DNA from: Dehalococcoidia bacterium
GTDB lineage: Bacteria > Chloroflexota > Dehalococcoidia > SM23-28-2 > RBG-16-64-32
Direction of reading: 5' to 3'
DNA: 64,000 nt
NCBI GenBank assembly: GCA_040877915.1
Contig: JBBDNA010000006.1
Span: 128,524-192,523, forward strand
Shown: positions 549 to 53,249 of the stretch, piece by piece
Position numbering within the stretch: position 1 is the first letter of the stretch
How the letters are laid out: every line of letters begins with the position of its first letter
The notes under the pieces: model-generated
What the model saw: only the letters and a program-made list of their open reading frames with translations
What the model was told of the DNA's origin: nothing
Database searches by the model: none
Translations under genes and position numbers: made by a program

Positions 549-653
549 GCGACAAGAAGTCCCCCGACTGCGGACTGAAGTCCGCAGCTTTCAGCCCCGC
601 CACCCCGACGAGGCCCGGCGCTTCCAACCTCCAACCTCCAATCTCGACGCTCC

Positions 654-2132
654 ATGACCACTGACCTTCACTACCTGACCGCGCACGAAGCCGCCGGCCT
701 ACTCGCCAGGCGCGAGGTGTCATCGGTCGAGCTGACGAAGGCGGCGTTCGAGCGTATCGCCGCGCTGGACGACCGCATTCACGCCTTCCTCACACTCACC
801 GAAGACGGCGCGCTGGCCCAGGCGCAGGCCGCCGACGAGCGCATCGCCCGCGGCGAGGCGGGCCCCCTCACCGGCATCCCCGCCGCCATCAAGGACGTCG
901 TCAGCACGAAGGGCGTCCGCACCACCTGCGGCTCGCGCATCCTCGAGAACTTCGTCCCGCTGTACGACGCGACGGTGATCGAGCGGCTGAAGGACGCCGG
1001 CCTGGTGATGCTGGGCAAGACCAATATGGACGAGTTCGCGATGGGCTCCTCCGGCGAGAACTCCGCCTTCGGGCCCACGCGCAACGCCTGGGACCCCGAC
1101 CGCGTGCCCGGCGGCTCCTCGGCCGGCTCGGCGGCCGCAGTGGCCTCCGGCATGGCCTGCTACGCTCTCGGCTCCGACACCGGCGGCTCGATCCGGCAGC
1201 CGGCCTGCCTCTCCGGCATCGTCGGCTTCAAGCCGACCTACGGCCGCGTGTCGCGCTACGGTCTCGTCGCCTTCGGGTCGTCGCTGGACCAGATCGGCCC
1301 GATGACCCGCTCCGTCCGCGACGCCGCGCTGGTCTTCCAGGCGATCGCCGGCCACGACGCGAACGACTCCACCTCGGCGCCGCTGGAGGTCCCCGACGTG
1401 ACCGCCGCCCTCAGCGGCGACCTGAAGGGCCTGCGGGTCGGCGTGCCGATGGAGTACTTCGTCGAAGGCATGGACGCCGACGTCCGCGACGCCGTGCGCG
1501 CCGCCGTCGGCAAGATGGCCGACCTGGGCGCGATCGTCGACTGGGAGGTCTCGCTGCCGTCGACGCCCTACGCGCTGGCCGTGTACTACATCATCGCCCC
1601 CTCGGAGGCGTCGGCTAACCTAGCCCGCTACGACGGCGTGAAGTACGGCTACTCGTACGGCGAGGGGCCCGGGATGTGGGACGACATGGAGAAGACGCGC
1701 CAGTTCGGCTTCGGCGAGGAGGTGAAGCGCCGCATCATGCTGGGCACCTACGCCCTCTCCGCCGGCTACTACGACGCCTACTACGTGAAGGCGCAGAAGG
1801 TGCGCACGCTCATCCGCCGCGAGTTCGACGCCGCCTTCCAGGACCACGACGTGCTGGTGGCGCCGGTCTCGCCGACGCCGGCGTTCAAGATCGGCGAGAA
1901 GGTGGACGACCCGCTGCAGATGTACCTCAGCGACGTCTGCACGATCCCCGTGAACATCGCCGGGCTGCCGGGCATGTCCATCCCCTGCGGCTTCAGCGAC
2001 GTCGACGGCAAGCGTCTCCCGATCGGCCTGCAGGTGCTCGCCAAACCGTTCGACGAGCCCTCGCTGTTCCGCACCGCCTACGCCTACGAGCAGGCCACGG
2101 ACTGGCACACCCAGCACCCGGAGGTGACGTGA
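654..2132 (+). CDS. gatA: Asp-tRNA(Asn)/Glu-tRNA(Gln) amidotransferase subunit A
   Basis: Amidase signature (KD..., [19 protein letters not shown]), [33 protein letters not shown]. Confidence 0.97.
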
Positions 2133-3229
2133 CCCTCCCCCGCACGATCGCCGACATACCCACGCCCGCGCTGCTGGTGGACGTGGCCGCGATGCAGCGC
2201 AACATCCAGCGCATGGCGGAGTTCTTCGCGGAGGGGCCCTGCAAGCTGCGGCCCCACTTCAAGGCCCACAAGACGCCGGAGATCGCCCGCCGACAGCTCG
2301 AGGCCGGCTCCTGCGCCGGCCTCACCTGCGCCACCGTCGCCGAGGCGGAGGTCGCGGCGGAGTTCTGCGACGATATCCTCATCGCCAACCAGGTGATCGG
2401 CGCCGACAAAGCGGCCCGCGTCGCCGAGCTGGCGCGACAGGTCAGCATCACCGTCGCCGTCGACTCCGGCCGCGGGCTGGACGAGATCGCGGCCGCGGCC
2501 AGCGCGGCCGGCAGCGAGGTCGGCGTGCTGGTCGAAGTGAGCATCGGGTTTCGCTGCGGCGTCGCCCCCGGCGAGCCGGCGCTGGCCCTGGCCCGCCGCG
2601 CCGCCGACACGACCGGCGTCTCCCTGCGCGGCCTGATGGGCTACGAGGGCCACGCCGTCGGCCTCGAGGACCGGGCCAGCCGCGAGACCACAACCCGCGC
2701 CGCCGTCGTAGACCGGCTGCTGCCCAGCGTCCGGCTGGTGCGCGAGGCCGGCCTGCCCTGCGACATCGTCAGCGCCGGCGGCACCGGCACGTTCGACATC
2801 ACCGGTCGCATCGAGGGCGTCACGGAGATCCAGGCCGGCTCCTACGTCCTCATGGACACCGCCTACGCCAGGCTGGGCCTGCCGTTCGAGCAGGCGCTGT
2901 CGCTGCTGGGCACCGTCCTCAGCCGCCCCAGCGCGGCGATGTGCGTTGCCGACTGCGGGCACAAGTCCTGTACGTACGACCACGGCAACCCCGACGTTCG
3001 CGACGTCGAGGGCGCGAGCGTGGTCTTCCTCAGCGACGAGCACGCCTCGATCAGCCTGCCGGCCGGCGCGCCCCACCAGCCCGGCGACCGCATCCAGCTC
3101 TGGCCGTCGCACGTCGACCCGACGATCAACCTGCACGACGTCCTCTACGCCGTCGATGGCGACACCGTCGTCGACGTCTGGCCGGTGAGCGCCCGCGGCT
3201 ACGCGGAGCAGCGCCAGCACGGCGCTTGA
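2129..3229 (+). CDS. PLP-dependent fold-type III enzyme (D-threonine aldolase / D-serine dehydratase-like)
   Basis: [16 protein letters not shown] (PLP lysine), [31 protein letters not shown]; GTG start overlaps the gatA stop (GTGA). Confidence 0.85.
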
Positions 3230-3251
3230 CGCGCCCGCTACAATCGTCAGC

Positions 3252-4076
3252 ATGAGCGAGACGCTGCCGCAGCCCGCGCCCGTTACGGCAGACACATTCG
3301 AGCGCTATGCCCACTTCCTCAAGCGGACGCGGGAGATGGGTGTCGTCGGGCACCGCGGCGGCCTCCAGGCCACGCGTGACCTCATCGAGATGTGCGAGCT
3401 CCAGCCGGGCCAGCGCATCCTGGAAGTGGGCTGCGGCAGCGGCTACACCGCCTGCACGGTCGCGAAGGAGCACGGCGTATTCGTCGCGGCAGCGGACCTC
3501 GAGCCGCACCTCATCGCCCGTTCCCGGCAGCGCGCCCGATCGTCGAAGGTCGAGTCGAGCGTAGAGCTGGCGCTGGCCGACGCCCGCCGCCTACCCTTCG
3601 CCGACGCGGCGTTCGACGGCGTAATCTGCGAGTCGATCCTCGCCTTCCTGGAGGACAAGGCCACCCCGCTGGCCGAGTTCCACCGGGTGCTCAAGCCCGG
3701 CGGATTTGTCGCCCTCAACGAGATTACGTTCCTGGAGACGCCGCCGGCCGACCTGCTTTCCGCGTTGCGCGGCGCCGCGCAACGGGTGCCCGGCTTCCTG
3801 GCCGTCCCCGTCGACCCGGCGGAGCACCGGCGGCTCCTGGAGGACGGCGGCTTCACCTCGATCCGCGTCGAGACCGGGGACGTGCCGACGCGTCAGCAGA
3901 TAATGGAGCAGCTCCAGGTGGACGGATTCCGCGCCCTGAAGCCGTTCTTCGCCTCCATCTTCGACCGGGAGATGCGACAGGCGGTCTACCGCCGGGAGAT
4001 GGGCGAGGCCCAGCGCGTATTCGAGGCGCACACGGGCTACGGACTGTACTTCGGACGCAAACCGCCGGTGGCTTAG
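3252..4076 (+). CDS. Class I SAM-dependent methyltransferase
   Basis: ILEVGCGSG motif I, ADARRLPFADAAFD, RVLKPGG; TACAAT 7 nt before ATG suggests a leaderless start. Confidence 0.85.
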   Translation: MSETLPQPAPVTADTFERYAHFLKRTREMGVVGHRGGLQATRDLIEMCELQPGQRILEVGCGSGYTACTVAKEHGVFVAAADLEPHLIARSRQRARSSKVESSVELALADARRLPFADAAFDGVICESILAFLEDKATPLAEFHRVLKPGGFVALNEITFLETPPADLLSALRGAAQRVPGFLAVPVDPAEHRRLLEDGGFTSIRVETGDVPTRQQIMEQLQVDGFRALKPFFASIFDREMRQAVYRREMGEAQRVFEAHTGYGLYFGRKPPVA

Positions 4077-5326
4077 GCGGACCTTGCCGGCTTCTGGCTG
4101 GCCGCTTCCTCCGTCAGGCCGGCCCCCAGACACCAGCGGTTCCCGCCCTCCCGCTTGGCCCGGTACATGGCCTGATCGGCGGCGCGGATCAGATCGTCCA
4201 TGCTCGTCCCGGAGCTCGGGTACACGGCGATCCCGAAGCTCAGCGTCGGCACGGGAAGGTCCGCCCAGACCTCCTCCGTTCTGTCGCGGATGTAACGGGC
4301 GACCCGGCTGCACATGCGCACGGCGCCAGGGGCGTCGGTGTCAGGCAGGACGATAAGGAACTCGTCGCCGCCCATCCTGCCGATCTGGTCCGTGTCCCGG
4401 GACCTGTCGACCAGACCGCGCGAGAGGAACTGCAGGATACGATCGCCGTAGGGGTGCCCGCCACGATCGTTGCACTCCTTGAAGTTGTCGCCATCGGCGA
4501 TGATCACCGCCATCGAGCGGCGTCCGCGCTGGGCCAGGGCCAGAAGCTCTCGCATGCGGCGGCTGATGGCGCCTCGGTTGAGCAGGCCGGTGAGCTGGTC
4601 GGTCTCGGCCCGTCGCAAGAGGGCCTCCGTCCTCTCCTCCACCTTGCGCTCCAGCTCCTCGTTCAGCGCCCGCAGGCGCCCCTCGGCGGCCAGCAGCTCC
4701 TCGTTCGCCCGCAGCGCGTCGTCGCGTTCGCGGCGCACCTCGTTGCCGATGAACACCATCCAGAACGTCACCGTGGCCAGCACCCCCACGAAGGCCAGCG
4801 TCGTGGTGACGATGAACTCCATGTCGCGGAACCGCTCCGGGCCCTGGGGCAGGTACCACTGGTGCGGAATGGTGTTGGCGGCGTCCAGCGATACCAGCGT
4901 GACGAACGAGGCGCACACCGCCACCATGAACAGCGTGGCGCCGCGCCAGGAGAGAAACACCGTGGCGTACATCAGGCCGTAGATGTAGGCCACCGCGCCC
5001 AGCCAGCTCAGCCCGCCCAGGAAATAGACGATGGCCGTGTGGAACCCCAGCTCCATCGCCAGCAGGCCGTAGTGCAGGTGGTCCAGGGTTCGCTCCGCCC
5101 GCACGCGCTCCATCAGCCAGCGATAGGCGAACAGCGTGGACGCTTCCGCCATCAGCACCAGGGCGAAGGCGTAGGGCATGGGGTAGCCGGCGACGAATAG
5201 CGTCCCCCACAAGCCGATAAACAGCAGAACGAGGGCTATGCGCGCCAGCGCGAACGCGCGGTGCTGACGCTTCTTACGCGCGAACGTCTCCGTTCGCACC
5301 GGTGGAACCGCCTCCAGCTTGACCAT
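4073..5326 (-). CDS. Membrane-anchored diguanylate cyclase (GGDEF domain)
   Basis: About five N-terminal hydrophobic helices, coiled coil, then DQLTGLLNR, D(G)DNFKECND, GHPYGD, RMGGDEF, ADQAMYRAK. Start placed at MVKLEAV (GAGGAG upstream). Confidence 0.88.
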   Translation of the reverse strand: MVKLEAVPPVRTETFARKKRQHRAFALARIALVLLFIGLWGTLFVAGYPMPYAFALVLMAEASTLFAYRWLMERVRAERTLDHLHYGLLAMELGFHTAIVYFLGGLSWLGAVAYIYGLMYATVFLSWRGATLFMVAVCASFVTLVSLDAANTIPHQWYLPQGPERFRDMEFIVTTTLAFVGVLATVTFWMVFIGNEVRRERDDALRANEELLAAEGRLRALNEELERKVEERTEALLRRAETDQLTGLLNRGAISRRMRELLALAQRGRRSMAVIIADGDNFKECNDRGGHPYGDRILQFLSRGLVDRSRDTDQIGRMGGDEFLIVLPDTDAPGAVRMCSRVARYIRDRTEEVWADLPVPTLSFGIAVYPSSGTSMDDLIRAADQAMYRAKREGGNRWCLGAGLTEEAASQKPARSA

Positions 5327-5593
5327 CTCCTCGATACGTTGACCGCCCCGGCGGCCCGCCGGCGCCCCATCTGCCCGACCCCGAATACTGCGCCGGCTGT
5401 TATTTAAGAGCCGCGCGTAGCCGCCTGCGTTTCGCCTTGAACGCAACTTTAACCAAAGCCAAACGTTCGGCTGTCACAGATACACATCCCGGCCCGTGCG
5501 GGATGACACCGCGCCGCGCCTCTGCTACGATTATCGGAACGGCGCAGCGACTCCTTTTCCCCGCCCGACGCGTCCTTCGGAGGCCACCGCAGA

Positions 5594-6775
5594 GTGACTG
5601 AGAGTTCGTATACCATCAAGCCGGAGTACATATCCGATAGGGTCCGCACGCTCCCGTCCTCCGGAATTCGCCGCTTCTTCGAACTGATCACCAACATGGA
5701 CGGCGTTATCTCCCTCGGCGTCGGCGAGCCCGATTTCGTGACGCCCGAGCGCTTCAGCGAGGCCGCGTTCCAGGCGGTTCAGGCCGGCCACACCCACTAC
5801 ACGTCGAACTACGGCCTCATCGAGCTCCGCGAAGCGGTGTCCGATCACCTGGACCGGCTCTACGGCGTCCGCTACGACCCCCGCAACGAGATCCTGATAA
5901 CCATCGGCGTATCCGAAGGTCTCCTCCTCGCCCTCATGACCATCCTCAACCCCGGCGACGAACTGCTCTCCGCCGACCCCTACTACGTGGCCTATCTCCC
6001 CACCTGCCAGCTGGCCGGGGGCAATTTCGTTCCCGTGGCCACCGGCATGGAGACCGACTTCCGCGTTAGCGCCCACGACCTGGAGGCACACTGCACCGAT
6101 CGGACCAAGGGCATCCTACTGGGCTACCCCTCCAACCCCACCGGTGCCCAGATGACCCGCGAGGGGCTCACCGGCATCGCCGACCTGGCCGCCCGGCGGG
6201 ACCTCATCGTGGTGTCCGACGAGATATACGACCGGTTGTCCTACGGCCTGCCCCACAACTGCTTCGCCTCCCTCCCCGGCATGCGAGAGCGCACCATCCT
6301 CCTGGGCGGCTTCTCCAAGGCCTACGCTATGACCGGCTGGCGCGTCGGCTGGGTGTGCGCTCCGGCCGAGCTCCTGGAAGCGATGATGAAGATCCACCAG
6401 TACATCATCATGTCGGCGCCCACGCCGGCCCAGTACGCCGCCCTGGAGGCGATCCGAACCGGCGAGGAGGAGAGCCAGCGCATGATCGCCGACTTCGACT
6501 CCCGCCGCCGCCTCATCGTGTCCGCGCTCAACGACATGGGGCTCACCTGCTTCGACCCCCACGGCGCCTTCTACGCCTTCCCCTCCGTCCGCTCCACCGG
6601 CCTCGACGACGTGGAGTTTTCGGAGCGCCTCCTGATGGAGGAGAAGGTGGCGGTCATCCCCGGCTCCGCCTTCGGCGATTGCGGCCGCGGCCACGTACGC
6701 GCCTGCTACGCGGCGCCACGCCCGCTCCTGGAAGAGGGGCTGGAGCGCATCCGGCGCTTCGTCAAGGGGCTCTAA
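5594..6775 (+). CDS. Class I/II PLP-dependent aminotransferase (aspartate/aromatic aminotransferase-like)
   Basis: ISLGVGEPDF, YPSNPTG, SDEIY, GFSKAYAMTGWRVG, PGSAFG. Confidence 0.9.
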   Translation: MTESSYTIKPEYISDRVRTLPSSGIRRFFELITNMDGVISLGVGEPDFVTPERFSEAAFQAVQAGHTHYTSNYGLIELREAVSDHLDRLYGVRYDPRNEILITIGVSEGLLLALMTILNPGDELLSADPYYVAYLPTCQLAGGNFVPVATGMETDFRVSAHDLEAHCTDRTKGILLGYPSNPTGAQMTREGLTGIADLAARRDLIVVSDEIYDRLSYGLPHNCFASLPGMRERTILLGGFSKAYAMTGWRVGWVCAPAELLEAMMKIHQYIIMSAPTPAQYAALEAIRTGEEESQRMIADFDSRRRLIVSALNDMGLTCFDPHGAFYAFPSVRSTGLDDVEFSERLLMEEKVAVIPGSAFGDCGRGHVRACYAAPRPLLEEGLERIRRFVKGL

Positions 6776-6831
6776 TCTGTACTATTCTCGTGGATGTGCC
6801 GACATCTTTCGCGACACTGGTTAGCCCAACT

Positions 6832-7010
6832 CGTTCTCCCTGAGCCGCCCGGAGTCCGCCAGGGGCGGACGGAGGGCGAGTCGAAGGGCTTCGCCAGCGC
6901 GTCGTAATCGCACCTTTGTGCGCATAGCGGACAGCCTTCGTGTTCGTACGTATCGACGAAGCACTTCGACAAACCGGCCTGCCTGCCGGCAGGCAGGCTC
7001 AGTGCGAACG
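6832..7010. repeat. Inverted pair of CTGAGC..GTCGAAG / CTTCGAC..GCTCAG repeat arms, each carrying an inserted hairpin
   Basis: Left arm CTGAGC(6840-45)-34 nt hairpin-GTCGAAGGG(6880-88); right arm CTTCGAC(6964-70)-24 nt insert-AGGCTCAG(6995-7002); insert overlaps a perfect 22-bp palindrome GCCTGCCTGCCGGCAGGCAGGC (6977-6998). Confidence 0.8.
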
Positions 7011-7160
7011 GATCGCTGGCTGAAGCGGCTCGGACGACGGGAGTCGTTACCGTTGCATCAGCCGTCGCTACGGTTTATGGATAGCACCATCCAGTCGCCG
7101 AATCCACCTGTGAGCGCGGTCACACCGGCGCCTTACCCGTTGCGCTAAACTGGTGTCGCC

Positions 7161-8533: not shown

Positions 8534-8561
8534 CCTCCGCCAGCGAGACTCAGCGGGCAGG

Positions 8562-8809
8562 CCCTCACCCCGACCTGTCGGTCGCCCCTCTCCCGCAGGC
8601 GGGAGAGGGGCCAGGGAGAGGGCTCGGTCTAAGCTGCGCCTTTCAAGGCGCAGTACAGCATCCGGGCGGGTGGGCGGGCCGGACCACGCAGGCGCCGCGG
8701 CAAGCGAAGGACCTCCCGCGAAGGGCTCACCTTAACCACCCACGCCCGCTCACCCTGAGCCTGTCGAAGGGTGAGCCGCTCGTACTTCGACAGGCTCAGC
8801 ACGAGCGGG
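8562..8809. repeat. Intergenic mosaic of three repeat types between convergent genes
   Basis: CCCTCACCC..CCCCTCTCCCGC/GCGGGAGAGGGG hairpin (8585-8610); TTCA-loop hairpin (8634-8653); perfect 15-bp inverted repeat CTGAGCCTGTCGAAG (8755-69) / CTTCGACAGGCTCAG (8785-99). Confidence 0.85.
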
Positions 8810-8847
8810 ACGACTAGGGCGCCATCGTGCCCGCCGGCCGTGCGGCC

Positions 8848-9660: not shown

Positions 9661-9667
9661 CGCCCGG

Positions 9668-16824: not shown

Positions 16825-16850
16825 GTAGGTCGGGGTCTTCAGACCCCGAC
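16825..16850 (+). repeat. GTAG-tagged REP-like hairpin with TTCA loop
   Basis: GTAG-GTCGGGGTC-TTCA-GACCCCGAC, perfect 9-bp stem between convergent rpmB and rpe. Confidence 0.85.
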
Positions 16851-16851
16851 G

Positions 16852-36217: not shown

Positions 36218-36290
36218 AGCGTTGTTACGCACTCTACCCCAGCCTGAAGACTGGGGCATCCCTTGCGTTGAGTCGAGCCGGATAAGAAGT

Positions 36291-44063: not shown

Positions 44064-44286
44064 GTAGGGTCGACCTTCAGGTCGCCCGCGACCGCAGCCC
44101 GCGTCCAGATAGCCCCGCCCACCAACCTTCGTCCTCCGGGCCGGCCCATGTAGCGGAGGTCCCTTCGACTTCGCTCAGGACATGCTTCAGACCTCCAGCC
44201 TCCAGCCCTGCCCTGAGCCCGCCGTAGGGTCGCCGCCCACAGTCTCGCCAGCGCCCGTTCGCACTGAGCCTGTCGAAGTGCTTCGT
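44064..44286. repeat. REP-like repeat cluster after gltB
   Basis: GTAG/TTCA hairpin 44064-87; GTAG/TTCA hairpin 44150-96 interrupted by a 24-bp CCTTCGACTTCGCTCAGGACATGC insert; (CCTCCAG)2; CTGAGCCTGTCGAAG unit 44256-86. Confidence 0.85.
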
Positions 44287-44926: not shown

Positions 44927-45044
44927 CCCCTCCGCCCCGCGCCACCCCCAACCAGCGACCTACAACCGGCAAGCCTCGGCCGTTCGCGCTATCATGGTTC
45001 GCGGCTTTTTCGGTTTGTAGGCTTGCCCGCAAGGAGGCCCGTCC

Positions 45045-45497: not shown

Positions 45498-45515
45498 CCC
45501 TACGGCGGCGGTGGA

Positions 45516-46370: not shown

Positions 46371-46419
46371 CGGGCATCCGTCATTGTCTCCCCTTCGGCC
46401 TTCCGATAAGCTTCACGAC

Positions 46420-47346: not shown

Positions 47347-47410
47347 ACCGGCCCGACGGGCCCGTCCGGGCGCGCTGCCTGCCGGCGGGCCGGCGCGCTA
47401 TACTGGATAC

Positions 47411-47842
47411 GTGACCGGTAGAGCCATCGTCCTGTTCGACGGCGTCTGCAACCTCTGCAACGCCTCGCTGGACTTCATCCTGCGTCACGATAGTCGCGGC
47501 TACTTCCGCTTCGCCTCCCTGCAGTCGGACGCCGGCCGGCGGCTGGCACGAGAGCACGGCCTCGACCCAGAGCGGATCGACACCGTCGTGCTGGTAGAGG
47601 ACGGCAAGGCATACCTCCGGTCGAAGGCGGCGCTGCGGATCGCGCGACGGCTGAGCGGGCCGTATAACGCCGCGTACATGCTTATCGCCGTGCCGCGACC
47701 GGTGCGCGATTTCGTATACGACCGGGTCGCCCGCAGTCGCTACCGCTGGTTCGGCAAGCGCGACACCTGCCGCGCCCCCACACCCGAGGAGCGCGACCGC
47801 CTCCTGGACTACGAGCCCGCCGGCGAGGAGGTGGCGGCGTGA
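47411..47842 (+). CDS. DCC1-like thiol-disulfide oxidoreductase (YuxK/DUF393)
   Basis: VLFDGVCNLC, FASLQS, RDFVYDRVARSRYRWFG; TATACT 6 nt before GTG. Confidence 0.88.
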   Translation: MTGRAIVLFDGVCNLCNASLDFILRHDSRGYFRFASLQSDAGRRLAREHGLDPERIDTVVLVEDGKAYLRSKAALRIARRLSGPYNAAYMLIAVPRPVRDFVYDRVARSRYRWFGKRDTCRAPTPEERDRLLDYEPAGEEVAA

Positions 47843-49692
47843 GCGAATCGAAGTTCCACTTCTCCCCCCGGCCCAATCGCGCCCACGAGATCCAGTGGCG
47901 CGAGTGGGGCGGGGACGCGTTCGCGGAGGCGCAGGCGCAGGACAAGCCGATCCTGCTGGCGCTGTCCGCGGTCTGGTGCCACTGGTGCCACGTCATGGAC
48001 GAGACCTCGTACTCCGACCCCGGCGTGATCTCCTACGTCAACCAGCACTACGTCCCCGTCCGCGTCGACAACGACCAGCGCCCGGACATCAACTCCCGCT
48101 ACAACCTGGGCGGCTGGCCGACGACGGCGTTCCTGACCCCGGACGGCGAGCTGATGACCGGCGGCACCTACATCCCGCCCGAGGCGATGCTGGAGCACCT
48201 GCCCAAGATCGCAGTCGCGTATAGGAGCGACAAGGAGGAGATCCTGCGCAAGGTGGGCGAGATGCGGGAGCGCCGCGGCCAGACGGCCGCCCGTCCGGGC
48301 GCTGGCGCCACCCCCGCCCGCGGCGACCTCTCGCCGGAGATGTTCGACGCCGTCGTCAACGGGGTGGCCCAGAGCTACGACCCCGTGTTCGGCGGCTTCG
48401 GCGAGGCGCCCAAGTTCCCTCACACGGACTCGATCGACCTGCTGCTGTACGCGCACCGCCGCCGCAACGACCCCGACCTGCTGCACATGGCCCGCAAGAC
48501 GCTGGAGCTAATGGCTGCCGGCGACGTCTTCGACCAGGAGTGGGGCGGCTTCTTCCGCTACGCCACCCGCCGCGACTGGTCGGAGCCACACTACGAGAAG
48601 ATGCTGGAGGACAACGCGAACCTGCTGCGCTGCCTCCTGGCGCTGCACCGCGTCACCGGCGGCGAGGCCCACGCCGCCGCCGCCTCGCGCGTTATCGACT
48701 ACCTGGAGGCGAAGCTGCGCGACACCGATAAGGGCTACTTCTACGGCTCCCAGGACGCCGACGAGGAGTTCTACAAGCTCGCCGCCGCTGAGCGCGCGAA
48801 GCTCGAGGAGCCGTACATCGACCAGACGTGCTACACGTCCTGGAGCGCGATGGCCGCCTCCGCCTACCTCCAGGCTGCCTGGACGCTGGACCGGCCGGAG
48901 CTGCGCGACGCCGCCCTGCAGGCGCTCAACTTCGCCTGGGAGAACCTGCGCACGGAGGACGGCGGCCTACCGGTGATGCACCGCTACCACGATGGGCCCG
49001 AGGCGGACGCAGGTGGCTCCCCGCACGTCCCCGGCCTCCTGGGCGACCAGGCCTACACCGCCCGCGCCGAGCTCGACGCCTACGAGGTCACGGGCGACCC
49101 CTCGCACCTGGAACGGGCGCAGGCGCTCGCCCAAACCCTTCTCCAGCGCTTCGCCGCCGGGTCTCCGGAGCGTCCGGCCGGATTCCACGACGTCTGGGAC
49201 AGCGGCGGCGGGCTGGGCCGCCTGGCCGATCGCGAACGCTCGCCGCAGGAGAACGCCGTCTGCGCCGAGGTCTTCCTCCGCCTCCACCACCTGACCCGCG
49301 ACGAGGCGTATCACGCCGTCGCCCAATCCACGCTTGAGGCGTTCGCGCCGGCCTACCAGGCGCTGGGCAACTTCGCCGCCGCCTACGCCAAACAGGTCGA
49401 CCTGCTGCTCAACCCGCCGCCGGAGGTCAACGTCGTCGGCCCGCCCGACGATGCGGCCACCCGCGCCCTCCACCTCGCCGCCCTCCGGCTGGACGCGCCG
49501 TTCCGCGTCATCCAGCTGCTGGACCCGGCCCGGGACGCCGAGCGGCTGGCCGCGCTCTCCCTGCCCCCGGAGCCCTCGCCCGCCGCCTATGCCTGCGCCG
49601 GCACGATGTGCTCCGCCCCCGTCACCGACCCCGCCGCCCTCCAGGCCGCCGTCGACGCCATGCGCTCGGCCGGAGTCAGGACGCTCGAATAG
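47839..49692 (+). CDS. Thioredoxin-domain protein (YyaL/DUF255 family)
   Basis: WCHWCHVMDETSY, RPDI, GGWP, APKFP, HYEKMLEDNA, QDADEE. Confidence 0.9.
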   Translation: MSESKFHFSPRPNRAHEIQWREWGGDAFAEAQAQDKPILLALSAVWCHWCHVMDETSYSDPGVISYVNQHYVPVRVDNDQRPDINSRYNLGGWPTTAFLTPDGELMTGGTYIPPEAMLEHLPKIAVAYRSDKEEILRKVGEMRERRGQTAARPGAGATPARGDLSPEMFDAVVNGVAQSYDPVFGGFGEAPKFPHTDSIDLLLYAHRRRNDPDLLHMARKTLELMAAGDVFDQEWGGFFRYATRRDWSEPHYEKMLEDNANLLRCLLALHRVTGGEAHAAAASRVIDYLEAKLRDTDKGYFYGSQDADEEFYKLAAAERAKLEEPYIDQTCYTSWSAMAASAYLQAAWTLDRPELRDAALQALNFAWENLRTEDGGLPVMHRYHDGPEADAGGSPHVPGLLGDQAYTARAELDAYEVTGDPSHLERAQALAQTLLQRFAAGSPERPAGFHDVWDSGGGLGRLADRERSPQENAVCAEVFLRLHHLTRDEAYHAVAQSTLEAFAPAYQALGNFAAAYAKQVDLLLNPPPEVNVVGPPDDAATRALHLAALRLDAPFRVIQLLDPARDAERLAALSLPPEPSPAAYACAGTMCSAPVTDPAALQAAVDAMRSAGVRTLE

Positions 49693-49694
49693 CC

Positions 49695-50228
49695 ATGCCG
49701 AAGCGCGACCAGACCCCTGAGGACGAACTCCGCGACGTCATGGACGAGATGCCCTACGGCCTGTACATCATCGGCTCGAAAGCCGGCGGCGAGGTCAACG
49801 CCATGATGGCCGACTGGGTGATGCAGGTGTCGTTCGTGCCGCGCCTGGTCGCCGTCTCGTTCGAGAACGACGCCCGCACGCTGGCTAACGTCCACGAGTC
49901 CGGCGTGTTCACGGTGAACCTGCTGCCCCAGGAGGCGATGGAGTTCGCCGCGCGCTTCGCCCAGCCGGCCGAGGGCTCCAAGATTAAGGGCCGCTCACCA
50001 GAAGAGGCGGCGAAGGTCCATCACAAGCTTGAGGGCGTGGCGACGACGGATTCCGCGCGCGGCTGCCCGATCCTGGACGAGGCGATGGCCTGGCTGGAGT
50101 GCGAGGCCGAGCAGTACGTCCCCGCCGGCGACCACACGCTGGTCATCGCCCGCGTGCTCGACGGGCGCGTCACCCGCGACGCCGAGCCCCTGACCTCCAC
50201 CTACACCGGCTGGACGTACAGCGGCTAG
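49695..50228 (+). CDS. Flavin reductase-like FMN-binding protein
   Basis: PYGLYIIG, WVMQVSFVP, FTVNLL, AWLECE, GDHTL. Confidence 0.88.
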   Translation: MPKRDQTPEDELRDVMDEMPYGLYIIGSKAGGEVNAMMADWVMQVSFVPRLVAVSFENDARTLANVHESGVFTVNLLPQEAMEFAARFAQPAEGSKIKGRSPEEAAKVHHKLEGVATTDSARGCPILDEAMAWLECEAEQYVPAGDHTLVIARVLDGRVTRDAEPLTSTYTGWTYSG

Positions 50229-50258
50229 CGGCGGGCTCGGCGTGCGGGCCCAGGCAAT

Positions 50259-50654
50259 GTAGGTCGGGGTCTTCAGACCCCGACGGCATCGCCCTCCGGC
50301 GGGCTAATGTAGCGGAGGCCTTCAGGCCTCCATTTGGTGGGCCCAGCAACGGGCCCGCCCGTCATCGCGGGCGACCTGGTCGCCCCTACACCAGCCTGTT
50401 GGGGCGGAGCGGGGCCAAGCTGCGCGATTCATCGCGCAGTACAGCCGTCCGGGCGGGCGGGTCGGCCGAACCACGGCCAGCCCAACGTAGGTCGGGACCT
50501 TCAGACCCCGACGGCACCGCCGTATTCCACGACCAGCCTGTTGGGGCGGAGCGGGGCCAAGCTGTGCGATTCATCGCGCAGTCCAGCCGTCCGGGCGGGC
50601 GGGTGGGCCGAACCACGGCCAGCCCAACGTAGGTCGGGGTCTTCAGACCCCGAC
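50259..50654 (+). repeat. REP/BIME-like cluster with a 142-bp tandem duplication
   Basis: Hairpins at 50259-84, 50309-31, 50369-89 (minus), 50420-39, 50487-512, 50562-81, 50629-54; units starting 50391 and 50533 are near-identical. Confidence 0.9.
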
Positions 50655-50691
50655 GCGACCCTGAGCCCTCACTCCAACCCGCCGAAAGACT

Positions 50692-51207
50692 CTACGGCCA
50701 CTCCTCCTCCTCGACCGGGAACACCTCGCTGAGGCGCCCCTTGAGCTGACGCACCTGCCACAGGTGCTCCAGGTCGTGCTGGGCCAGCTCCCGCGCCACC
50801 TCGCCCAGCGTCACCGGGCCCCGGAACGGGTGCTCCGCCTCGCGCGCCCAGTCGGCCTCCGTCACCCCCCACAACAGCAGCGTCGTCTCCCGCCGCGCCG
50901 AGCGGAACGACTCCAGGAACGCCTCGATCTCTTCGCCCTGGTAGTCGCGCTCCTCCGGCAGCACGTCCACGTCCCAGGCCGGCAGCTTCGACCGTGGCCG
51001 GCCGGAGACGAACGCCTGCACCTGCGCCAGCGCCAGCTCCTCGGCGTCCCGCAGGTGGGCCGCGATCTCCTTCAACGACCACTCGCCCTCGGCCGGGCGC
51101 CAGCAGAGGCGCTCCTCGTCCAGGCCGTACAGCTCGCTCAGCAGCGAGCCTCCGGCCTCACGCAGCGCCTTCAGCGTCCATCCCTGAGGATCGCCATATT
51201 CCAGCAC
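50692..51207 (-). CDS. DinB family protein
   Basis: WSLKEIAAHL.DAE, HDLEHLWQ metal-binding His pattern; TAAAAT 6 nt before GTG. Confidence 0.85.
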   Translation of the reverse strand: MLEYGDPQGWTLKALREAGGSLLSELYGLDEERLCWRPAEGEWSLKEIAAHLRDAEELALAQVQAFVSGRPRSKLPAWDVDVLPEERDYQGEEIEAFLESFRSARRETTLLLWGVTEADWAREAEHPFRGPVTLGEVARELAQHDLEHLWQVRQLKGRLSEVFPVEEEEWP

Positions 51208-51296
51208 GCGACCATTTTAACGCCTGCCTGCCGGCGGGCGGGCCCCGCGACGCCTTTGACCGACCTCCGCGTTGACCCTATCATTATCGACGCGCC

Positions 51297-52121
51297 ATGA
51301 GTGCCGAGGCCCTCCCCCTGACACTGCTCATCCTGTTCGTCGAGTTCACCGTCGGCGGGCTGTGGCTGCTCTGGCTGGCCGACCTACGGGGCGCTGCCGC
51401 CGCCTCGTTCGTCAAGTTCGGCGCCGGCCTCGTCTTCGTCACCGCCGGGCTGACCTTCTGGATCGCCGCCACGGTCTCCGTCGGCGGCGAGGTCGACGGC
51501 TACCCCCTGGACCCCGGCTTCATGCCGCCGGCGCGCATCGCCCTGGCCTGCCTGTTCGGGCTGTGTCTGCCCTACGCCATCCTGAGCTACCGCGAGATGC
51601 GGACGCCGTCGCTGGTCGCCGGTGGGATCGCCACCGCCGCCGGGCTGGCGTCGGTCGCCCTGCTGGCCCAGGTGTTCGCCCTGCCGACGTGGGGGTACGC
51701 GGGCGCGCTGCTGAGCCTCGTGATCGGCGCGCTGGTCGTTGGGGCCGTCTCCATGGGCATGATCCTCGGCCACTGGTACCTGGTGACCCCCCGCCTGCCG
51801 GAGCAGCCACTGCGCGAGATGACGTTCTTCCTCCTGGTCGCCCTGGCCTTCCAGGCGCTGATCATCGTCCCCGCCCTGGTCCTGCCCCGCGACGCCATCA
51901 CGACATCGGTCGATACACCCATCGCCGAGAACCCGTTCTTCTGGCTGCGGGTGGCAGGTGGCGTCGCCTTCCCCTTCGCGCTGACCTATATGGCGTTCGA
52001 TTCCAGCGGCGTGCGGGCCATGCAGTCCGCCACCGGCCTGCTGTACATCGCGATGGCGCTGGTCCTGGCCGGCGAGGTGCTCGCCAAGGGACTGCTGTTC
52101 GCGTCGGCGGTGCCCACCTGA
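51297..52121 (+). CDS. Polytopic membrane protein with a GHWYL motif
   Basis: About eight hydrophobic helices, MILGHWYLV, ATGLLY. Confidence 0.7.
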   Translation: MSAEALPLTLLILFVEFTVGGLWLLWLADLRGAAAASFVKFGAGLVFVTAGLTFWIAATVSVGGEVDGYPLDPGFMPPARIALACLFGLCLPYAILSYREMRTPSLVAGGIATAAGLASVALLAQVFALPTWGYAGALLSLVIGALVVGAVSMGMILGHWYLVTPRLPEQPLREMTFFLLVALAFQALIIVPALVLPRDAITTSVDTPIAENPFFWLRVAGGVAFPFALTYMAFDSSGVRAMQSATGLLYIAMALVLAGEVLAKGLLFASAVPT

Positions 52122-52146
52122 TACGATTGGCCGTGGAGGGTTCGAT

Positions 52147-52566
52147 ATGCCCCGCACCCTGCTAGCCGCGCTGCTGCTCGCCGCTTTCGCCCTCGCCGCC
52201 CTGGCCTGCGAGGACTCCGGCGACTTCCTGCTGGAAGAAGAGCCCGAGGCCACCGGCACGCCCGCCTTCCTCGAGCGCTCCCCCGAACCCTCGCCCGAGC
52301 CAACGGGGGAGGCCAGCCCCACCGCTCCCGACGCCACGCCGGTCGCCGCGTTTAAGGTCACCACCGACGAGAACGTCAACCAGCGTGACGGCCCCTCGAC
52401 CAGCGAGGCCGTCGCCGGCACCCTCTCGGCCGGCGATGAGGCCACGGTCATCGCCACGATCCGCGGCGAGGCCGTTGAGGGCGCGAACGACGTCTGGTAC
52501 CAGCTGGAGGACGGCGGCTTCGTCTACTCCGGCGCGGTAGACGAAGTTGACGAGGCGGAGGAATGA
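52147..52566 (+). CDS. Lipoprotein with C-terminal SH3b-like domain
   Basis: Lipobox ALAC; VNQRDGPST...G...WYQL..GGFVYSG. Confidence 0.72.
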   Translation: MPRTLLAALLLAAFALAALACEDSGDFLLEEEPEATGTPAFLERSPEPSPEPTGEASPTAPDATPVAAFKVTTDENVNQRDGPSTSEAVAGTLSAGDEATVIATIRGEAVEGANDVWYQLEDGGFVYSGAVDEVDEAEE

Positions 52567-53138
52567 GCGAGAGCTACGACCGCCAGGCGGCCTGGGACCT
52601 GCTCTGCGAGTTCACCAAGACGGAGCCCCTGCGCAAGCACGGCCTCGCTGTCGAGGCGGCCATGCGCGCGTACTCTCGGCGCTACGACGGCGAGGAGGAG
52701 AAGTGGGGCATCGTCGGCCTGCTGCACGACTTCGACTACGAGATGTTCCCGAACGCCGAGGAGCACCCGGTCAAGGGCGCCGCTATCATGCGGGAACGGG
52801 GCTGGCCGGAGGACATCATCTACGCGATCCAGTGCCACGCCGATTACCTGGGGCTGGAGCGCAAGACGCCGATGGACCGCGCCATCTTCGCCGTGGACGA
52901 GCTGACCGGCCTGGTCATCGCCGTGGCCCTGGTTCGCCCCAACAAGAGCCTGGACGAAGTGGACGTCCGGGCCGTCCGCAAGAAGATGAAGGACAAGGGG
53001 TTCGCCCGCAACGTGATCCGCGAGGACATCACCAAGGGAGCGGAGCAGCTCGGGGTCGAACTCGACGAGCACATCGCCTTCGTAATAGAATCGCTGAAGC
53101 CCGTCGCCACCGAGCTCGGCATCGTCGGCGCCCGCTGA
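52563..53138 (+). CDS. HD-superfamily phosphohydrolase
   Basis: LRKHGLAV, GLLHDFDYE, AIQCHA, AVDELTG. Confidence 0.88.
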   Translation: MSESYDRQAAWDLLCEFTKTEPLRKHGLAVEAAMRAYSRRYDGEEEKWGIVGLLHDFDYEMFPNAEEHPVKGAAIMRERGWPEDIIYAIQCHADYLGLERKTPMDRAIFAVDELTGLVIAVALVRPNKSLDEVDVRAVRKKMKDKGFARNVIREDITKGAEQLGVELDEHIAFVIESLKPVATELGIVGAR

Positions 53139-53163
53139 TGCCGCTGGCATTCCGCGGACCATC

Positions 53164-53249
53164 GTAGGGGCCGACCTTCAGGTCGGCCCTGGGCGGGGCG
53201 GGGCCCGGCTGGGCCCTTAGCCCCCGTAGCCGCAGGTTTTCAGACCTGC
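53164..53249 (+). repeat. Two GTAG-tagged TTCA-loop hairpins
   Basis: GTAG-GGGCCGACC-TTCA-GGTCGGCCC (53164-89) and GTAG-CC-GCAGGTT-TTCA-GACCTGC (53226-49). Confidence 0.85.

What the first reader, a model, noticed from the sequence alone, without database searches (positions are those of the whole stretch)
568..53249. Dispersed hairpin family with covarying stems and an invariant TTCA loop
Seen: at least 13 intergenic hairpins share the loop TTCA, but their stems differ and remain paired. AAG-led group: CTGCGGAC/GTCCGCAG (568-587, minus), CTGCGCCT/AGGCGCAG (8634), CTGCGCGA/TCGCGCAG (50420), CTGTGCGA/TCGCGCAG (50562). GTAG-led group: GTCGGGGTC/GACCCCGAC (16829, 50263, 50633; variant 50491), GGTCGACC/GGTCGCCC (44068), GGAGGTC/GACCTCC (44155), GGAGGCC/GGCCTCC (50314), GGGCCGACC/GGTCGGCCC (53168), GCAGGTT/GACCTGC (53232). 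Most are on the plus strand just 3' of plus-strand genes. Established: GTAG-tagged REPs are recognised as ssDNA hairpins by RAYT (HUH Y1) proteins. Inference: selection acts on structure plus loop rather than stem sequence, implying a protein that reads the TTCA loop in ssDNA or RNA. No RAYT is present in this window.
Basis: partly seen in the sequence, partly recalled or inferred. Interest (0 to 1): 0.7.

Follow-up and report, generated by a model that had tools for sequence, protein, structure and literature searches.

The report
REP hairpin repeats with TTNA loop
The hairpins are real REP elements: short DNA palindromes kept or spread by a RAYT tyrosine transposase that reads a 5' tag, a perfect stem and a TT-N-A loop, which is a known kind of bacterial repeat seen here in an uncultured Dehalococcoidia genome.

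Summary
All 13 hairpins lie at the stated coordinates. Genome-wide (2.14 Mb, 71.5% complete), TTCA/TGAA caps 123 of 613 perfect 4-nt-loop hairpins, about 45 times the expected number.

With one mismatch allowed there are 187 TTNA hairpins in at least 25 stem families. Of these, 92% are intergenic, they favour gene 3' ends, and none has a T-tract.

The loop is not invariant. T1, T2 and A4 are fixed and position 3 varies (C 142, T 23, G 13, A 9).

The genome holds one RAYT (NF047646, 132 bits), flanked by two inverted GTAG-GGACAGA[G/C]C-TT[T/C]A hairpins. Among 80 RAYT relatives from more than 10 phyla, 57 carry tagged TTNA hairpins in their flanks, with 53 different stems. A separate RAYT lineage carries CCCA loops instead.

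This matches published work. Gammaproteobacterial REPs have the same architecture (Nunvar 2010). SELEX on the Marinomonas REPtron shows that T1, T2 and A4 of a TTTA loop are essential and N3 is free (Corneloup 2021).

The verdict is a new member of a known kind. Two side features are less ordinary. The AAG-led hairpins belong to a lineage-specific hairpin-plus-G-quadruplex-motif repeat, and a 24-nt module sits in some REP loops.

The parts
568..587 (-). AAG-headed hairpin CTGCGGAC-TTCA-GTCCGCAG. It lacks the G-tract flank.
8620..8687 (+). Composite repeat: (T)AAG, hairpin CTGCGCCT-TTCA-AGGCGCAG (8634-8653), TACAGCATCC, G-quadruplex motif GGGCGGGTGGGCGGG (8664-8678), then CCGGACCAC.
16825..16850 (+). 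GTAG-headed REP: GTAG-GTCGGGGTC-TTCA-GACCCCGAC.
   Evidence: DNA fold -10.5 kcal/mol, z -4.6
36237..36256 (-). ATG-headed hairpin CCCCAGTC-TTCA-GGCTGGGG with one mismatch.
44064..44087 (+). GTAG-headed REP GTAG-GGTCGACC-TTCA-GGTCGCCC, a one-mismatch copy of the GGGCGACC family.
44150..44196 (+). GTAGC-GGAGGTC REP with a 24-nt module (44162-44185, CCTTCGACTTCGCTCAGGACATGC) between the 5' arm and TTCA (44186-44189), followed by the 3' arm GACCTCC.
50259..50284 (+). GTAG-headed REP: GTAG-GTCGGGGTC-TTCA-GACCCCGAC.
50309..50331 (+). GTAGC-GGAGGCC-TTCA-GGCCTCC REP.
50390..50655 (+). A 142-bp unit present 1.9 times in tandem. Each unit holds one AAG-headed composite (hairpins 50420-50439 and 50562-50581; G-tracts 50451-50465 (decayed) and 50593-50607) plus one GTAG-GTCGGG(AC/GT)C REP (50487-50512 decayed, 50629-50654 intact).
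53164..53189 (+). GTAG-headed REP: GTAG-GGGCCGACC-TTCA-GGTCGGCCC.
53226..53249 (+). GTAGCC-GCAGGTT-TTCA-GACCTGC REP of the GTAGCT-GCAGG[C/G]C family, with a T.G closing pair.

Best explanation
The hairpins are REP (repetitive extragenic palindromic) elements of the short, perfect-stem type. They are substrates, past or present, of REP-associated tyrosine transposases (RAYT/TnpA-REP, HUH-Y1 enzymes related to IS200/IS605 TnpA).

**What is shown**
- The genome encodes one RAYT, outside the window at contig C12:112160-112633. It is bracketed by two inverted copies of the hairpin.
- The copies are overwhelmingly intergenic.
- The loop has a fixed orientation relative to the 5' tag.
- RAYT relatives across many phyla carry the same 'tag + any stem + TT-N-A' hairpins at their flanks.
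- Another RAYT lineage carries a different loop.

**What is inferred**
This step rests on analogy with the Marinomonas and S. maltophilia enzymes (PMC8266576).
- When the strand bearing 5'-xxRG-stem-TTNA-stem is single-stranded, for example at a replication fork, it folds.
- The RAYT dimer recognises the perfect stem as a shape and reads T1, T2 and A4 of the loop base-specifically.
- It uses the 4-nt head as a guide to choose nearby cleavage sites.
- It then cuts and rejoins ssDNA, so hairpins are copied, excised or kept uniform.
- Because the stem sequence is not read, stems drift or are re-templated. This yields many stem families, at least 25 here, under one loop rule.
- Loop position 3 is free and follows genome G+C.

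**Origin of the families in this genome**
The stem and head families here probably descend from several RAYT lineages. Related genomes keep separate RAYTs flanked by the GAAG-, GGGGG- and GTAGC-headed families. Only one such RAYT is present in this 71.5%-complete assembly.
For: **Enrichment and architecture**
- TTCA/TGAA caps 123 of 613 perfect hairpins, against about 2.7 expected.
- Among GTAG-tagged hairpins the loops are TTCA 54, TTTA 18, TTGA 4 and TGAA only 3.
- The same stems occur with TTTA, TTGA and TTAA loops.

**Genomic context**
- 172 of 187 copies are intergenic.
- Density is 1.29 per kb in convergent regions, 0.72 in tandem regions and 0.15 in divergent regions.
- The nearest gene end is a 3' end for 115 copies and a 5' end for 54.

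**The RAYT**
- NF047646 REP_Tyr_transpos scores 132.4 bits (cut-off 80). PF01797 scores 53.5 bits. The best PDB match is E. coli TnpA-REP 4er8, E 3.5e-10.
- The HUH motif (DHLH) and the YIWNNP tyrosine motif are present.
- The gene is flanked by GTAG-GGACAGAGC-TTTA (+) and an inverted GTAG-GGACAGACC-TTCA.

**RAYT relatives**
- 57 of 80 homologous loci, from Chloroflexota, Acidobacteriota, Zixibacteria, Planctomycetota, Thermodesulfobacteriota and others, have tagged TTNA hairpins in the flanks.
- Of 139 tagged 4-nt-loop flank hairpins, 127 are TTNA (TTTA 63, TTCA 58, TTGA 4, TTAA 2), with 53 distinct stems.
- Loop position 3 follows genome G+C. The TTCA:TTTA ratio is 8:30 in genomes below 50% GC and 49:31 at 60% GC or above (p = 6e-5).
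- Supported RAYT clades share a stem family while the loop stays the same.
- In the same bacterial family, RAYTs 31-36% identical to this one are flanked by GAAG-GCCAGGC and GGGGG-GTCAGGC TTYA hairpins. These head and stem classes are also seen in this genome.
- A separate RAYT lineage is flanked by GTAG-GGTCACGGC-CCCA hairpins.

**Link between REP counts and RAYT presence**
- A covariance model of the GTAG-TTNA hairpin finds copies in 32 of 41 related genomes.
- The median is 24 hits in the 19 genomes with a RAYT above the cut-off and 1 hit in the 22 without (Mann-Whitney p = 5e-5).

**Literature**
- Marinomonas REP loop T12 T13 T14 A15: T12, T13 and A15 are essential by SELEX and N14 is free. 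The stem can be swapped, but a mismatch kills cleavage (PMC8266576).
- REPs with this architecture are listed for Thioalkalivibrio, H. influenzae, P. putida and P. entomophila (PMC2817692).
Against: - No biochemistry exists for this enzyme, so loop reading is inferred by analogy and from comparative conservation.
- Only one RAYT is present for at least 25 stem families, and its own family (GGACAGA[G/C]C) has only about 10 copies. The abundant families have no cognate RAYT in the assembly.
- About 108 of 187 hairpins lack a GTAG head and carry GTGG, GAAG, AAG or ATG heads instead. RAYTs flanked by AAG- or ATG-headed hairpins were not found. One relative locus has ATG-headed hairpins about 850 bp from a RAYT.
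- Four relatives have 16-61 model hits but no RAYT above the cut-off.
- The hairpins were collected by requiring pairing, so the 91% paired figure and the covariation score are partly circular.
- The Y-motif YIWNNP differs from the published subclass 2.5 signature YI[VI]ANP.
Confidence: 0.85

Rival explanations
1. RNA-level element. The hairpins would act in transcripts, as 3'-UTR stabilisers, terminators or binding sites for an RNA-binding protein that reads a UUCA tetraloop.
For: The copies favour gene 3' ends (115 against 54) and convergent intergenic regions. REPs in E. coli are known to stabilise upstream mRNA (established knowledge, summarised in PMC3733652). Some families carry a G.T pair on the TTCA strand, for example GCGGGTAGC/GCTGCCCGC.
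Against: In tandem intergenic regions 60 copies are sense and 49 antisense (p = 0.34). Half would therefore read UGAA in the mRNA, yet the loop is strictly oriented to the DNA tag (54:3). Only 3 of 187 have a T-run, and none scores as terminator-like in the window. There is no Rfam match. Other families carry the wobble on the opposite strand, for example GCGGAGGCC/GGCCTCCAC. The strand bias follows GC skew rather than gene direction.
Confidence: 0.05
2. Two systems. The GT[AG]G-headed hairpins are RAYT REPs, but the AAG-headed composite (hairpin plus G-quadruplex motif) and the ATG-headed CCCCAGCC/CCGCGC hairpins are a separate kind of repeat. They would share only the stable C-TTCA-G cap and would be spread by another mechanism.
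For: The AAG-headed copies have about 15 nt of conserved 5' flank and about 35 nt of conserved 3' flank, which the GTAG REPs lack. The composite is absent from 40 close relatives and from 300 genomes of the class, although GTAG-TTNA REPs are common there. No RAYT flanked by AAG-headed hairpins was found.
Against: They show the same loop rule, the same stem length (8 bp) and the same intergenic habit. They sit interleaved with GTAG REPs in one 142-bp unit. In the Marinomonas SELEX with a CT-carrying substrate, only the last two head positions (A3, G4) were strongly selected, and AAG ends in AG. Heads other than GTAG (GAAG, GGGGG) do flank RAYTs in relatives.
Confidence: 0.25
3. The compensated stems are a mutational by-product rather than evidence of selection. 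In quasi-palindromes, template switching during replication copies one arm from the other, so a change in one arm is automatically 'compensated'.
For: Young copies with nearly identical flanks differ by 2-3 fully compensated loop-proximal pairs. Examples are CTGCGCCT, CTGCGCGA, CTGCGCCC and CCGACGGC in the composite repeat. This is hard to obtain through independent double mutations. Quasi-palindrome correction is an established mutational mechanism (own knowledge).
Against: This does not explain why T1, T2 and A4 of the unpaired, asymmetric loop stay fixed across phyla while position 3 drifts. It also does not explain the fixed tag-to-loop orientation. Published enzymology shows that stem mismatches abolish RAYT cleavage, so selection and templated repair may act together.
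Confidence: 0.3
4. Chance or compositional artefact. GC-rich genomes have many hairpins, and the TTCA loops would be a coincidence.
For: The genome is 68% G+C and has 3438 strand-wise hairpins with at least 7 bp.
Against: The loop is enriched about 45-fold. 92% of copies are intergenic although only 12% of the genome is non-coding. Identical stems recur up to 19 times.
Confidence: 0.01

Closest known systems
Marinomonas sp. MWYL1 REPtron Mb (group 3 TnpA-REP with its REPs; Corneloup et al. 2021, PMC8266576)
   Same: It has a GTAG head, a short perfect stem and a 4-nt loop TT-N-A. T1, T2 and A4 are required and position 3 is free. The stem sequence is exchangeable but pairing is required. The head acts as a guide, with its last two bases weighing most. 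The comparative counts here show the same loop pattern.
   Different: The Mb stems are 5 bp with a 2-nt spacer, whereas here they are 7-9 bp with a 0-2 nt spacer. The Mb REPs cluster near the gene, whereas here they are dispersed. The host is a gammaproteobacterium. The protein relationship to TnpA-Mb was not tested because no reference sequence was on hand.
Short GT[AG]G REPs of Gammaproteobacteria with their RAYTs (Nunvar et al. 2010, PMC2817692, Table 1)
   Same: The architecture is the same and the sequence is nearly the same. Examples are Thioalkalivibrio GTAGGTCGGCCTTCAGGCCGAC, H. influenzae GTAGGGTGGGCTT[c/t]AGCCCACC, P. putida GB-1 TGTGGGAGCGGGTT[t/c]ACCCGCGAA and P. entomophila TGTAGGAGCGGATTCATCCGCGAT. 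The element here is GTAGGTCGGGGTCTTCAGACCCCGAC. In both cases the rayt gene is flanked by inverted REPs.
   Different: The host here is an uncultured Dehalococcoidia (Chloroflexota). At least 25 stem families and several head types (GTAG, GTGG, GAAG, AAG, ATG) coexist in about 2 Mb, with a single RAYT in the assembly.
GTAG-tagged REP super-family (Di Nocera, De Gregorio & Rocco 2013, PMC3733652)
   Same: [quoted passage not shown] The TT[C/T]A and CC[C/T]A loops here may correspond to these, which is my reading. Elements occur as single units, dimers and clusters, and the family is reported in Chloroflexi.
   Different: That paper counts T and A as stem bases and does not link loop type to RAYT lineage. 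The families found here are not in its catalogue as far as the text shows (its figures are not held).
E. coli REP/BIME with TnpA-REP (RayT; PDB 4ER8; group 2 / subclass 2.2)
   Same: It is a homologous HUH-Y1 enzyme (E 3.5e-10), it uses a GTAG head, it recognises an ssDNA hairpin, and its gene is single-copy and flanked by REPs.
   Different: The E. coli REPs are long, imperfect and bulged. The bulge is read, not the loop. The motif signature is DHLH/WE/YIHYNP, against DHLH/WQ/YIWNNP here.
IS200/IS605 elements (IS608, ISDra2)
   Same: They use a Y1 HUH transposase that binds subterminal ssDNA hairpins, contacts loop or unpaired T bases, and uses a 4-nt guide 5' of the hairpin. Their activity is tied to the lagging-strand template.
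   Different: In those elements the hairpins are the two directly oriented ends of a mobile gene cassette. Here the hairpins are hundreds of gene-less copies and the gene is single-copy with inverted flanks.

Membership tests
REP elements (GT[AG]G-tagged) | A GT[AG]G tetranucleotide lies 0-2 nt 5' of the hairpin. | tested here: met
   79 of 187 TTNA hairpins have GTAG 7-9 nt before the loop. About 25 more have GTGG/GGTGG heads. The feature is not met by the GAAG-, AAG- and ATG-headed families, about 80 copies.
REP elements (GT[AG]G-tagged) | A GC-rich palindrome with a fully paired basal stem of at least 7 bp and a loop of 2-5 nt (rules in PMC6006769). | tested here: met
   Stems are 7-9 bp and the loop is 4 nt. 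The DNA fold is -10.5 kcal/mol with z = -4.6.
REP elements (GT[AG]G-tagged) | High copy number and extragenic location. | tested here: met
   There are 187 copies, or 87 per Mb, and 172 are intergenic. Gene calls come from my own crude codon-usage caller.
REP elements (GT[AG]G-tagged) | A cognate rayt gene is flanked by REPs in inverted orientation (a REPtron). | tested here: met
   At C12:112160-112633 the gene has GTAG-GGACAGAGC-TTTA upstream and an inverted GTAG-GGACAGACC-TTCA downstream. The same arrangement is seen in relatives.
REP elements (GT[AG]G-tagged) | Frequent inverted doublets (REPIN/BIME). | tested here: inconclusive
   Among neighbours within 150 nt there are 23 tail-to-tail, 11 head-to-head and 26 direct pairs. 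89 copies are singletons. The window's cluster is entirely in direct orientation.
RAYT / TnpA-REP (NCBIfam NF047646; Pfam PF01797) | The profile score is above the curated cut-off. | tested here: met
   NF047646 scores 132.4 bits (cut-off 80). The IS200 model NF033573 scores 38.2 bits, below its cut-off of 55. PF01797 scores 53.5 bits.
RAYT / TnpA-REP (NCBIfam NF047646; Pfam PF01797) | An HUH motif and a catalytic Tyr in a YIxxNP motif. | tested here: met
   MPDHLHLL and EYIWNNPV are present. They align with E. coli TnpA-REP HMH / YIYINPV.
RAYT / TnpA-REP (NCBIfam NF047646; Pfam PF01797) | The gene is single-copy, with no IS-like duplicates. | tested here: met
   There is one match in the 71.5%-complete assembly.
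RAYT / TnpA-REP (NCBIfam NF047646; Pfam PF01797) | Sequence- and structure-specific cleavage and rejoining of ssDNA REPs. | not testable with these tools
   This needs purified protein and oligonucleotide assays.
RAYT group 3 (Bertels 2017) = subclass 2.5 (Quentin 2018) | Signature DH[LF]H, WQ, YI[VI]ANP, with a length of about 151 aa. | tested here: inconclusive
   DHLH, WQ and the 157-aa length fit. The Y-motif is YIWNNP, which fits the subclass 2.4 pattern YIxNNP instead. The HUH-to-Y spacing of about 58 aa (my count on the sequence) fits the 58-67 typical of most subclasses and not the 88 of subclass 2.4.
RAYT group 3 (Bertels 2017) = subclass 2.5 (Quentin 2018) | Short REPs, with foot plus stem length of 10-13 nt. 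| tested here: met
   GTAG plus 8 or 9 nt gives 12-13 nt to the loop in 78 of 79 copies.
RAYT group 3 (Bertels 2017) = subclass 2.5 (Quentin 2018) | Phylogenetic placement inside the subclass. | not tested
   No reference sequences of subclass 2.5 were on hand. The published range is 'mostly Xanthomonad and Pseudomonad'.
Intrinsic (Rho-independent) terminators | A GC-rich hairpin followed by a T/U tract. | tested here: not met
   A TTTT run lies within 12 nt in only 3 of 187 copies. None of the window's hairpins appears in the terminator scan.
Any Rfam RNA family | A covariance-model match at gathering score. | tested here: not met
   There are no matches in the 64-kb window.

The most novel reading that the evidence does not exclude
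The RAYT clade found here spans more than 10 phyla. It may use a minimal, stem-blind code: an xxRG head, any perfect 7-9 bp stem, and a TT-N-A loop. One enzyme could then service many stem families in trans. That would explain at least 25 stem families with a single RAYT in this genome.

On the same reading, the lineage-specific 70-nt composite (AAG-headed TTCA hairpin followed 10-11 nt later by GGGCGGGYGGGYGGG on the same strand) would be a REP derivative. Its G-quadruplex would hold the processed strand single-stranded and so promote hairpin extrusion and RAYT access.
Probability: 0.15. Interest if true: 0.55.

Novelty: new member of a known kind. Interest (0 to 1): 0.3.

Why it matters
REP/RAYT systems have been characterised almost only in Proteobacteria. 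This case shows that the loop rule measured biochemically in Marinomonas (T1, T2, A4 fixed; N3 free; stem read only as a shape) also holds comparatively. It holds for a RAYT clade spread over Chloroflexota, Acidobacteriota, anammox Planctomycetota, Zixibacteria and other phyla, while a sister lineage uses a CCCA loop.

This has two practical uses. It gives a simple, portable rule for annotating REPs in metagenome-assembled genomes, where they generate spurious ORFs. It also provides natural substrate-specificity variants for enzymology.

It does not reveal a new kind of system.

Tried and rejected
- **Rfam.** A search of the window at gathering threshold found nothing.
- **Terminator reading.** It is rejected: there are no T-tracts and no scan hits at the hairpins.
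- **RNA sense-strand reading.** It is rejected: sense to antisense is 60:49.
- **Replication direction.** I tried to fix it from dnaA (C12:78106-79410) and GC skew. The skew around dnaA shows no clear switch. The 87:44 bias of the TTNA strand towards the C-rich strand therefore cannot be assigned to the leading or lagging strand.
- **Contig ends.** I tested whether REPs pile up at contig ends, which would explain missing RAYTs. They do not: 5 of 42 ends have one, against about 5.9 expected.
- **Hairpin-plus-G4 composite outside this genome.** It is absent from 40 relatives and from 300 genomes of the class. The other hits are poly-G or unrelated.
- **Left/right REP asymmetry.** I looked for a fixed G-C versus C-G penultimate pair. 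It is only a tendency (10 against 4 of 39 loci), not a rule. 28 of 39 loci do have non-identical stems on the two sides.
- **Circularity caveat.** The pair-count statistics on alignment A1 are partly circular. The sequences were selected for pairing, so I do not use them as independent evidence.

Full report
**1. Observation check**

The window is C6:128524-192523 of a 2.14-Mb, 21-contig, 68% G+C assembly that is 71.5% complete.
- Eight have perfect stems.
- Three have one mismatch or wobble: 44068, 50562 and 53232.
- 50491 is a decayed copy with two mismatches.
- At 44155 the arms GGAGGTC/GACCTCC are 28 nt apart, because a 24-nt insert lies between the 5' arm and TTCA.
- One further copy, 36237-36256 on the minus strand, was missed.

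**2. Is it more than chance?**

Genome-wide there are 613 perfect hairpins with a stem of at least 7 bp and a 4-nt loop.
- 70 have loop TTCA and 53 have its complement TGAA. The next most common loop has 17.
- TTCA plus TGAA account for 0.44% of all 4-mers, so about 2.7 were expected.
- Allowing one mismatch gives 187 hairpins with a TT-N-A loop: TTCA 142, TTTA 23, TTGA 13, TTAA 9.
- They fall into at least 25 stem families with two or more copies. The largest are GGGCGACC (19), GACAGGC (16), GTCGGGGTC (15), GCCAGGC (13) and GGAGGCC (11).
- The same stems occur with TTCA, TTTA, TTGA and TTAA. Positions 1, 2 and 4 of the loop are therefore fixed and position 3 is not.
- The loop has a polarity relative to the 5' tag. 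Among GTAG-tagged hairpins the counts are TTCA 54, TTTA 18, TTGA 4 and TGAA only 3.

**3. Genomic context**

I built a simple codon-usage gene caller (2054 genes, 88% coverage).
- 172 of 187 hairpins are intergenic.
- Density is 1.29 per kb in convergent regions, 0.72 in tandem regions and 0.15 in divergent regions.
- The nearest gene end is a 3' end for 115 copies and a 5' end for 54.
- In tandem regions 60 copies are sense and 49 antisense to the flanking genes (p = 0.34). The plus-strand, downstream-of-plus-gene pattern in the window is therefore local.
- Only 3 of 187 are followed by a T-run. None is picked up by the terminator scan. Rfam finds nothing.
- The TTNA strand lies on the locally C-rich strand 87 times and on the G-rich strand 44 times, after cancelling coding-strand effects (p = 2e-4). 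For GTAG-headed copies the ratio is 40:13.
- I could not tell which strand is leading, because the skew around dnaA shows no clean switch.

**4. What it is**

The genome has one Y1 transposase-like gene, at C12:112160-112633.
- It matches NCBIfam NF047646 'REP-associated tyrosine transposase' at 132 bits (cut-off 80). It falls below the cut-off of the IS200 model.
- It matches Pfam Y1_Tnp. Its best solved relative is E. coli TnpA-REP, 4er8.
- It has the HUH motif (DHLH), WQ and the tyrosine motif YIWNNP.
- Just upstream lies GTAG-GGACAGAGC-TTTA-GCTCTGTCC. Just downstream, inverted, lies GTAG-GGACAGACC-TTCA-GGTCTGTCC. The gene's TGA stop codon lies in the loop of the downstream copy.
- This is the canonical REPtron layout.

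**5. Comparative evidence**

I collected eighty RAYT relatives (42-58% identical). The closest are in Dehalococcoidia and other Chloroflexota MAGs. Others are in Acidobacteriota, Zixibacteria, anammox Planctomycetota, Thermodesulfobacteriota, WOR-3, Ignavibacteria and further groups.

I scanned their flanks for any perfect hairpin with a G[TA][AG]G tag and any loop.
- 57 of 80 loci have tagged TTNA hairpins.
- Of 139 tagged 4-nt-loop hairpins, 127 are TTNA (TTTA 63, TTCA 58, TTGA 4, TTAA 2), spread over 53 different stems.
- Position 3 follows genome G+C. The TTCA:TTTA ratio is 8:30 below 50% GC and 49:31 at 60% GC or above (p = 6e-5).
- In a RAYT tree, supported clades share a stem family (ACAGACC, GCAGGGC, GTCCGCC, GCAAGGC, GGAGGCC and others). 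Several clades cross phyla.
- This genome's RAYT pairs with one from another Dehalococcoidia MAG that has the same two flanking stems at 57% protein identity.

Within the same bacterial family the picture extends further.
- More distant RAYTs (31-36% identical) are flanked by GAAG-GCCAGGC and GGGGG-GTCAGGC hairpins with TT[C/T]A loops. These are the non-GTAG head classes also seen in this genome.
- A further RAYT lineage is flanked by GTAG-GGTCACGGC-CCCA hairpins.
- This genome has about a dozen GT[AG]G-GGTCGAGGC-CC[C/T]A copies but no such RAYT.
- The loop therefore goes with the enzyme lineage and the stem goes with the sub-lineage.

A covariance model of the GTAG-TTNA hairpin finds copies in 32 of 41 genomes of the family and order.
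- The median is 24 hits where a RAYT passes the cut-off and 1 hit where none does (p = 5e-5).

**6. Mechanism**

*Shown:* the association with RAYT, the structure, the tag-to-loop polarity, the lineage-specific loops and the intergenic spread.

*Inferred, from published enzymology of homologues:*
- RAYT binds the folded single strand.
- It needs a perfect stem but not a particular stem sequence.
- It reads T1, T2 and A4 of the loop.
- It uses the head as a guide for nearby CT/CA cleavage sites.

For the Marinomonas REPtron Mb these points were measured by SELEX and mutagenesis. The TTTA loop needs T12, T13 and A15, and N14 is free. A stem swap is tolerated and a stem mismatch is not. With a CT-carrying substrate only the last two head positions (A3, G4) were strongly selected (PMC8266576). 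The pattern of natural variation here is the same.

**7. Caveat on 'covariation'**

- My hairpin sets were selected for pairing, so the pair statistics are partly circular.
- In DNA palindromes, arm-to-arm template switching can create compensated changes without selection.
- The conservation of the unpaired, asymmetric loop and its polarity are the stronger evidence that a reader exists.

**8. The AAG-led group is a composite repeat**

- Thirteen copies share this layout: GGGGCGGGGCC, then (C/T)AAG, then an 8-bp stem with a TTCA loop, then TACAGCNNTCC, then GGGCGGGYGGGYGGG, then CCGAACCAC.
- The loop-proximal pairs of the stem vary with full compensation.
- Excluding poly-G and G-rich runs, most at contig ends, about 15 strict G3-N1 G-quadruplex motifs remain in the genome. 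Twelve of them lie in this element.
- The element is absent from 40 relatives and from 300 genomes of the class.
- In the window, a unit holding this element plus a GTAG REP is tandemly duplicated as a 142-bp repeat at 50390-50655.
- Whether a RAYT moves this element is open.

**9. The 24-nt loop module**

- The insert at 44162-44185 recurs in eight REPs of four stem families, always between the 5' arm and TT[C/T]A.
- It resembles a free-standing dispersed repeat, CCCTTCGACTTCGCTCAGGACAGGC.
- Another first-stage finding covers it.

**10. Comparison with what is known, and verdict**

- REPs with a GT[AG]G head, a short stem and a TT[c/t]A loop are tabulated for Thioalkalivibrio (GTAGGTCGGCCTTCAGGCCGAC), H. 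influenzae, P. putida and P. entomophila (PMC2817692).
- GTAG REPs, with loops that 'fit TY or CMA', are reported in Chloroflexi (PMC3733652).
- The foot-plus-stem length of 12-13 nt matches the short REPs of RAYT subclass 2.5 / group 3. So does the DHLH/WQ signature at 157 aa. The Y-motif differs, and I could not test placement in that subclass.
- This is a new member of a known kind.

Noticed in passing
window 44162-44185; also C1:81212, C1:157209(-), C1:63621(-), C3:93258, C4:20286(-), C6:275666, C8:38007 of the genome: A 24-nt module, CCTTCGRCTTCGCTCAGGRCATGC, sits exactly between the 5' arm and the TT[C/T]A loop in eight REPs of four stem families (GGGCGACC, CGGAGGCC, GTCGGGGTC, CGGAAGCC). 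This suggests insertion targeted to the loop edge, or a conserved long-loop REP variant. It does not fold on its own.
   Followed up: partly
genome-wide, e.g. C9:35664-35736 (three tandem copies), C2:107873(-), C4:54592(-): A free-standing dispersed repeat, CCCTTCGACTTCGCTCAGGACAGGC, occurs roughly 20 times. It is related to the loop module and is often followed by AGGCTCAGGGCGAGCGG.
   Followed up: no
window 8620-8687, 50405-50480, 50547-50622; 13 copies genome-wide: This is a composite repeat in which an AAG-headed TTCA hairpin is followed 10-11 nt later by a G3-N1 G-quadruplex motif on the same strand. Twelve of the genome's roughly 15 such motifs lie in this element. It is absent from 340 other genomes of the class.
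   Followed up: yes
genome: e.g. C19:4661(-), C8:49681, C2:111484, C4:12258(-): A second, smaller REP class, GT[AG]G-GGTCGAGGC-CC[C/T]A-GCCTCGACC, has about 12 copies. In related genomes a distinct RAYT lineage is flanked by GTAG-GGTCACGGC-CCCA hairpins, but no such RAYT is in this assembly.
   Followed up: partly
genome: e.g. C1:106960, C1:139962, C3:66688, C4:53132: A perfect palindrome, (A)GCCTGCCTG-CCGG-CAGGCAGGC(T), occurs about 16 times. It has no GTAG head and appears to be a different repeat family.
   Followed up: no
genome C12:112625-112646 (L001:1888-1909): The RAYT reading frame ends with a TGA that lies in the loop (TGAA on the coding strand) of its downstream flanking REP. The REP therefore overlaps the last codons of the gene.
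   Followed up: no
window 50390-50655: A 142-bp unit holding one composite repeat plus one GTAG REP is tandemly duplicated (1.9 copies, 95% identical). All six hairpins of the 50259-50654 cluster point the same way, unlike the alternating orientation of classical BIMEs.
   Followed up: partly
genome-wide: The tag/TTNA strand of intergenic hairpins lies on the locally C-rich strand 87 times and on the G-rich strand 44 times (GTAG class 40:13). Genes also slightly favour the C-rich strand (820:701). The replication direction could not be fixed.
   Followed up: partly
RAYT loci L002-L081: In 28 of 39 RAYT loci with hairpins on both sides, the upstream and downstream REPs have different stems. They mostly differ at the two or three loop-proximal pairs and are fully compensated, for example GCAGGGC upstream against GCAGGCC downstream in five Dehalococcoidia loci.
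   Followed up: partly
contig ends C19:62653-62703 and C15:76386-76436: There are long poly-G and GGGGT-type runs at contig ends. They are probably sequencing or assembly artefacts.
   Followed up: no
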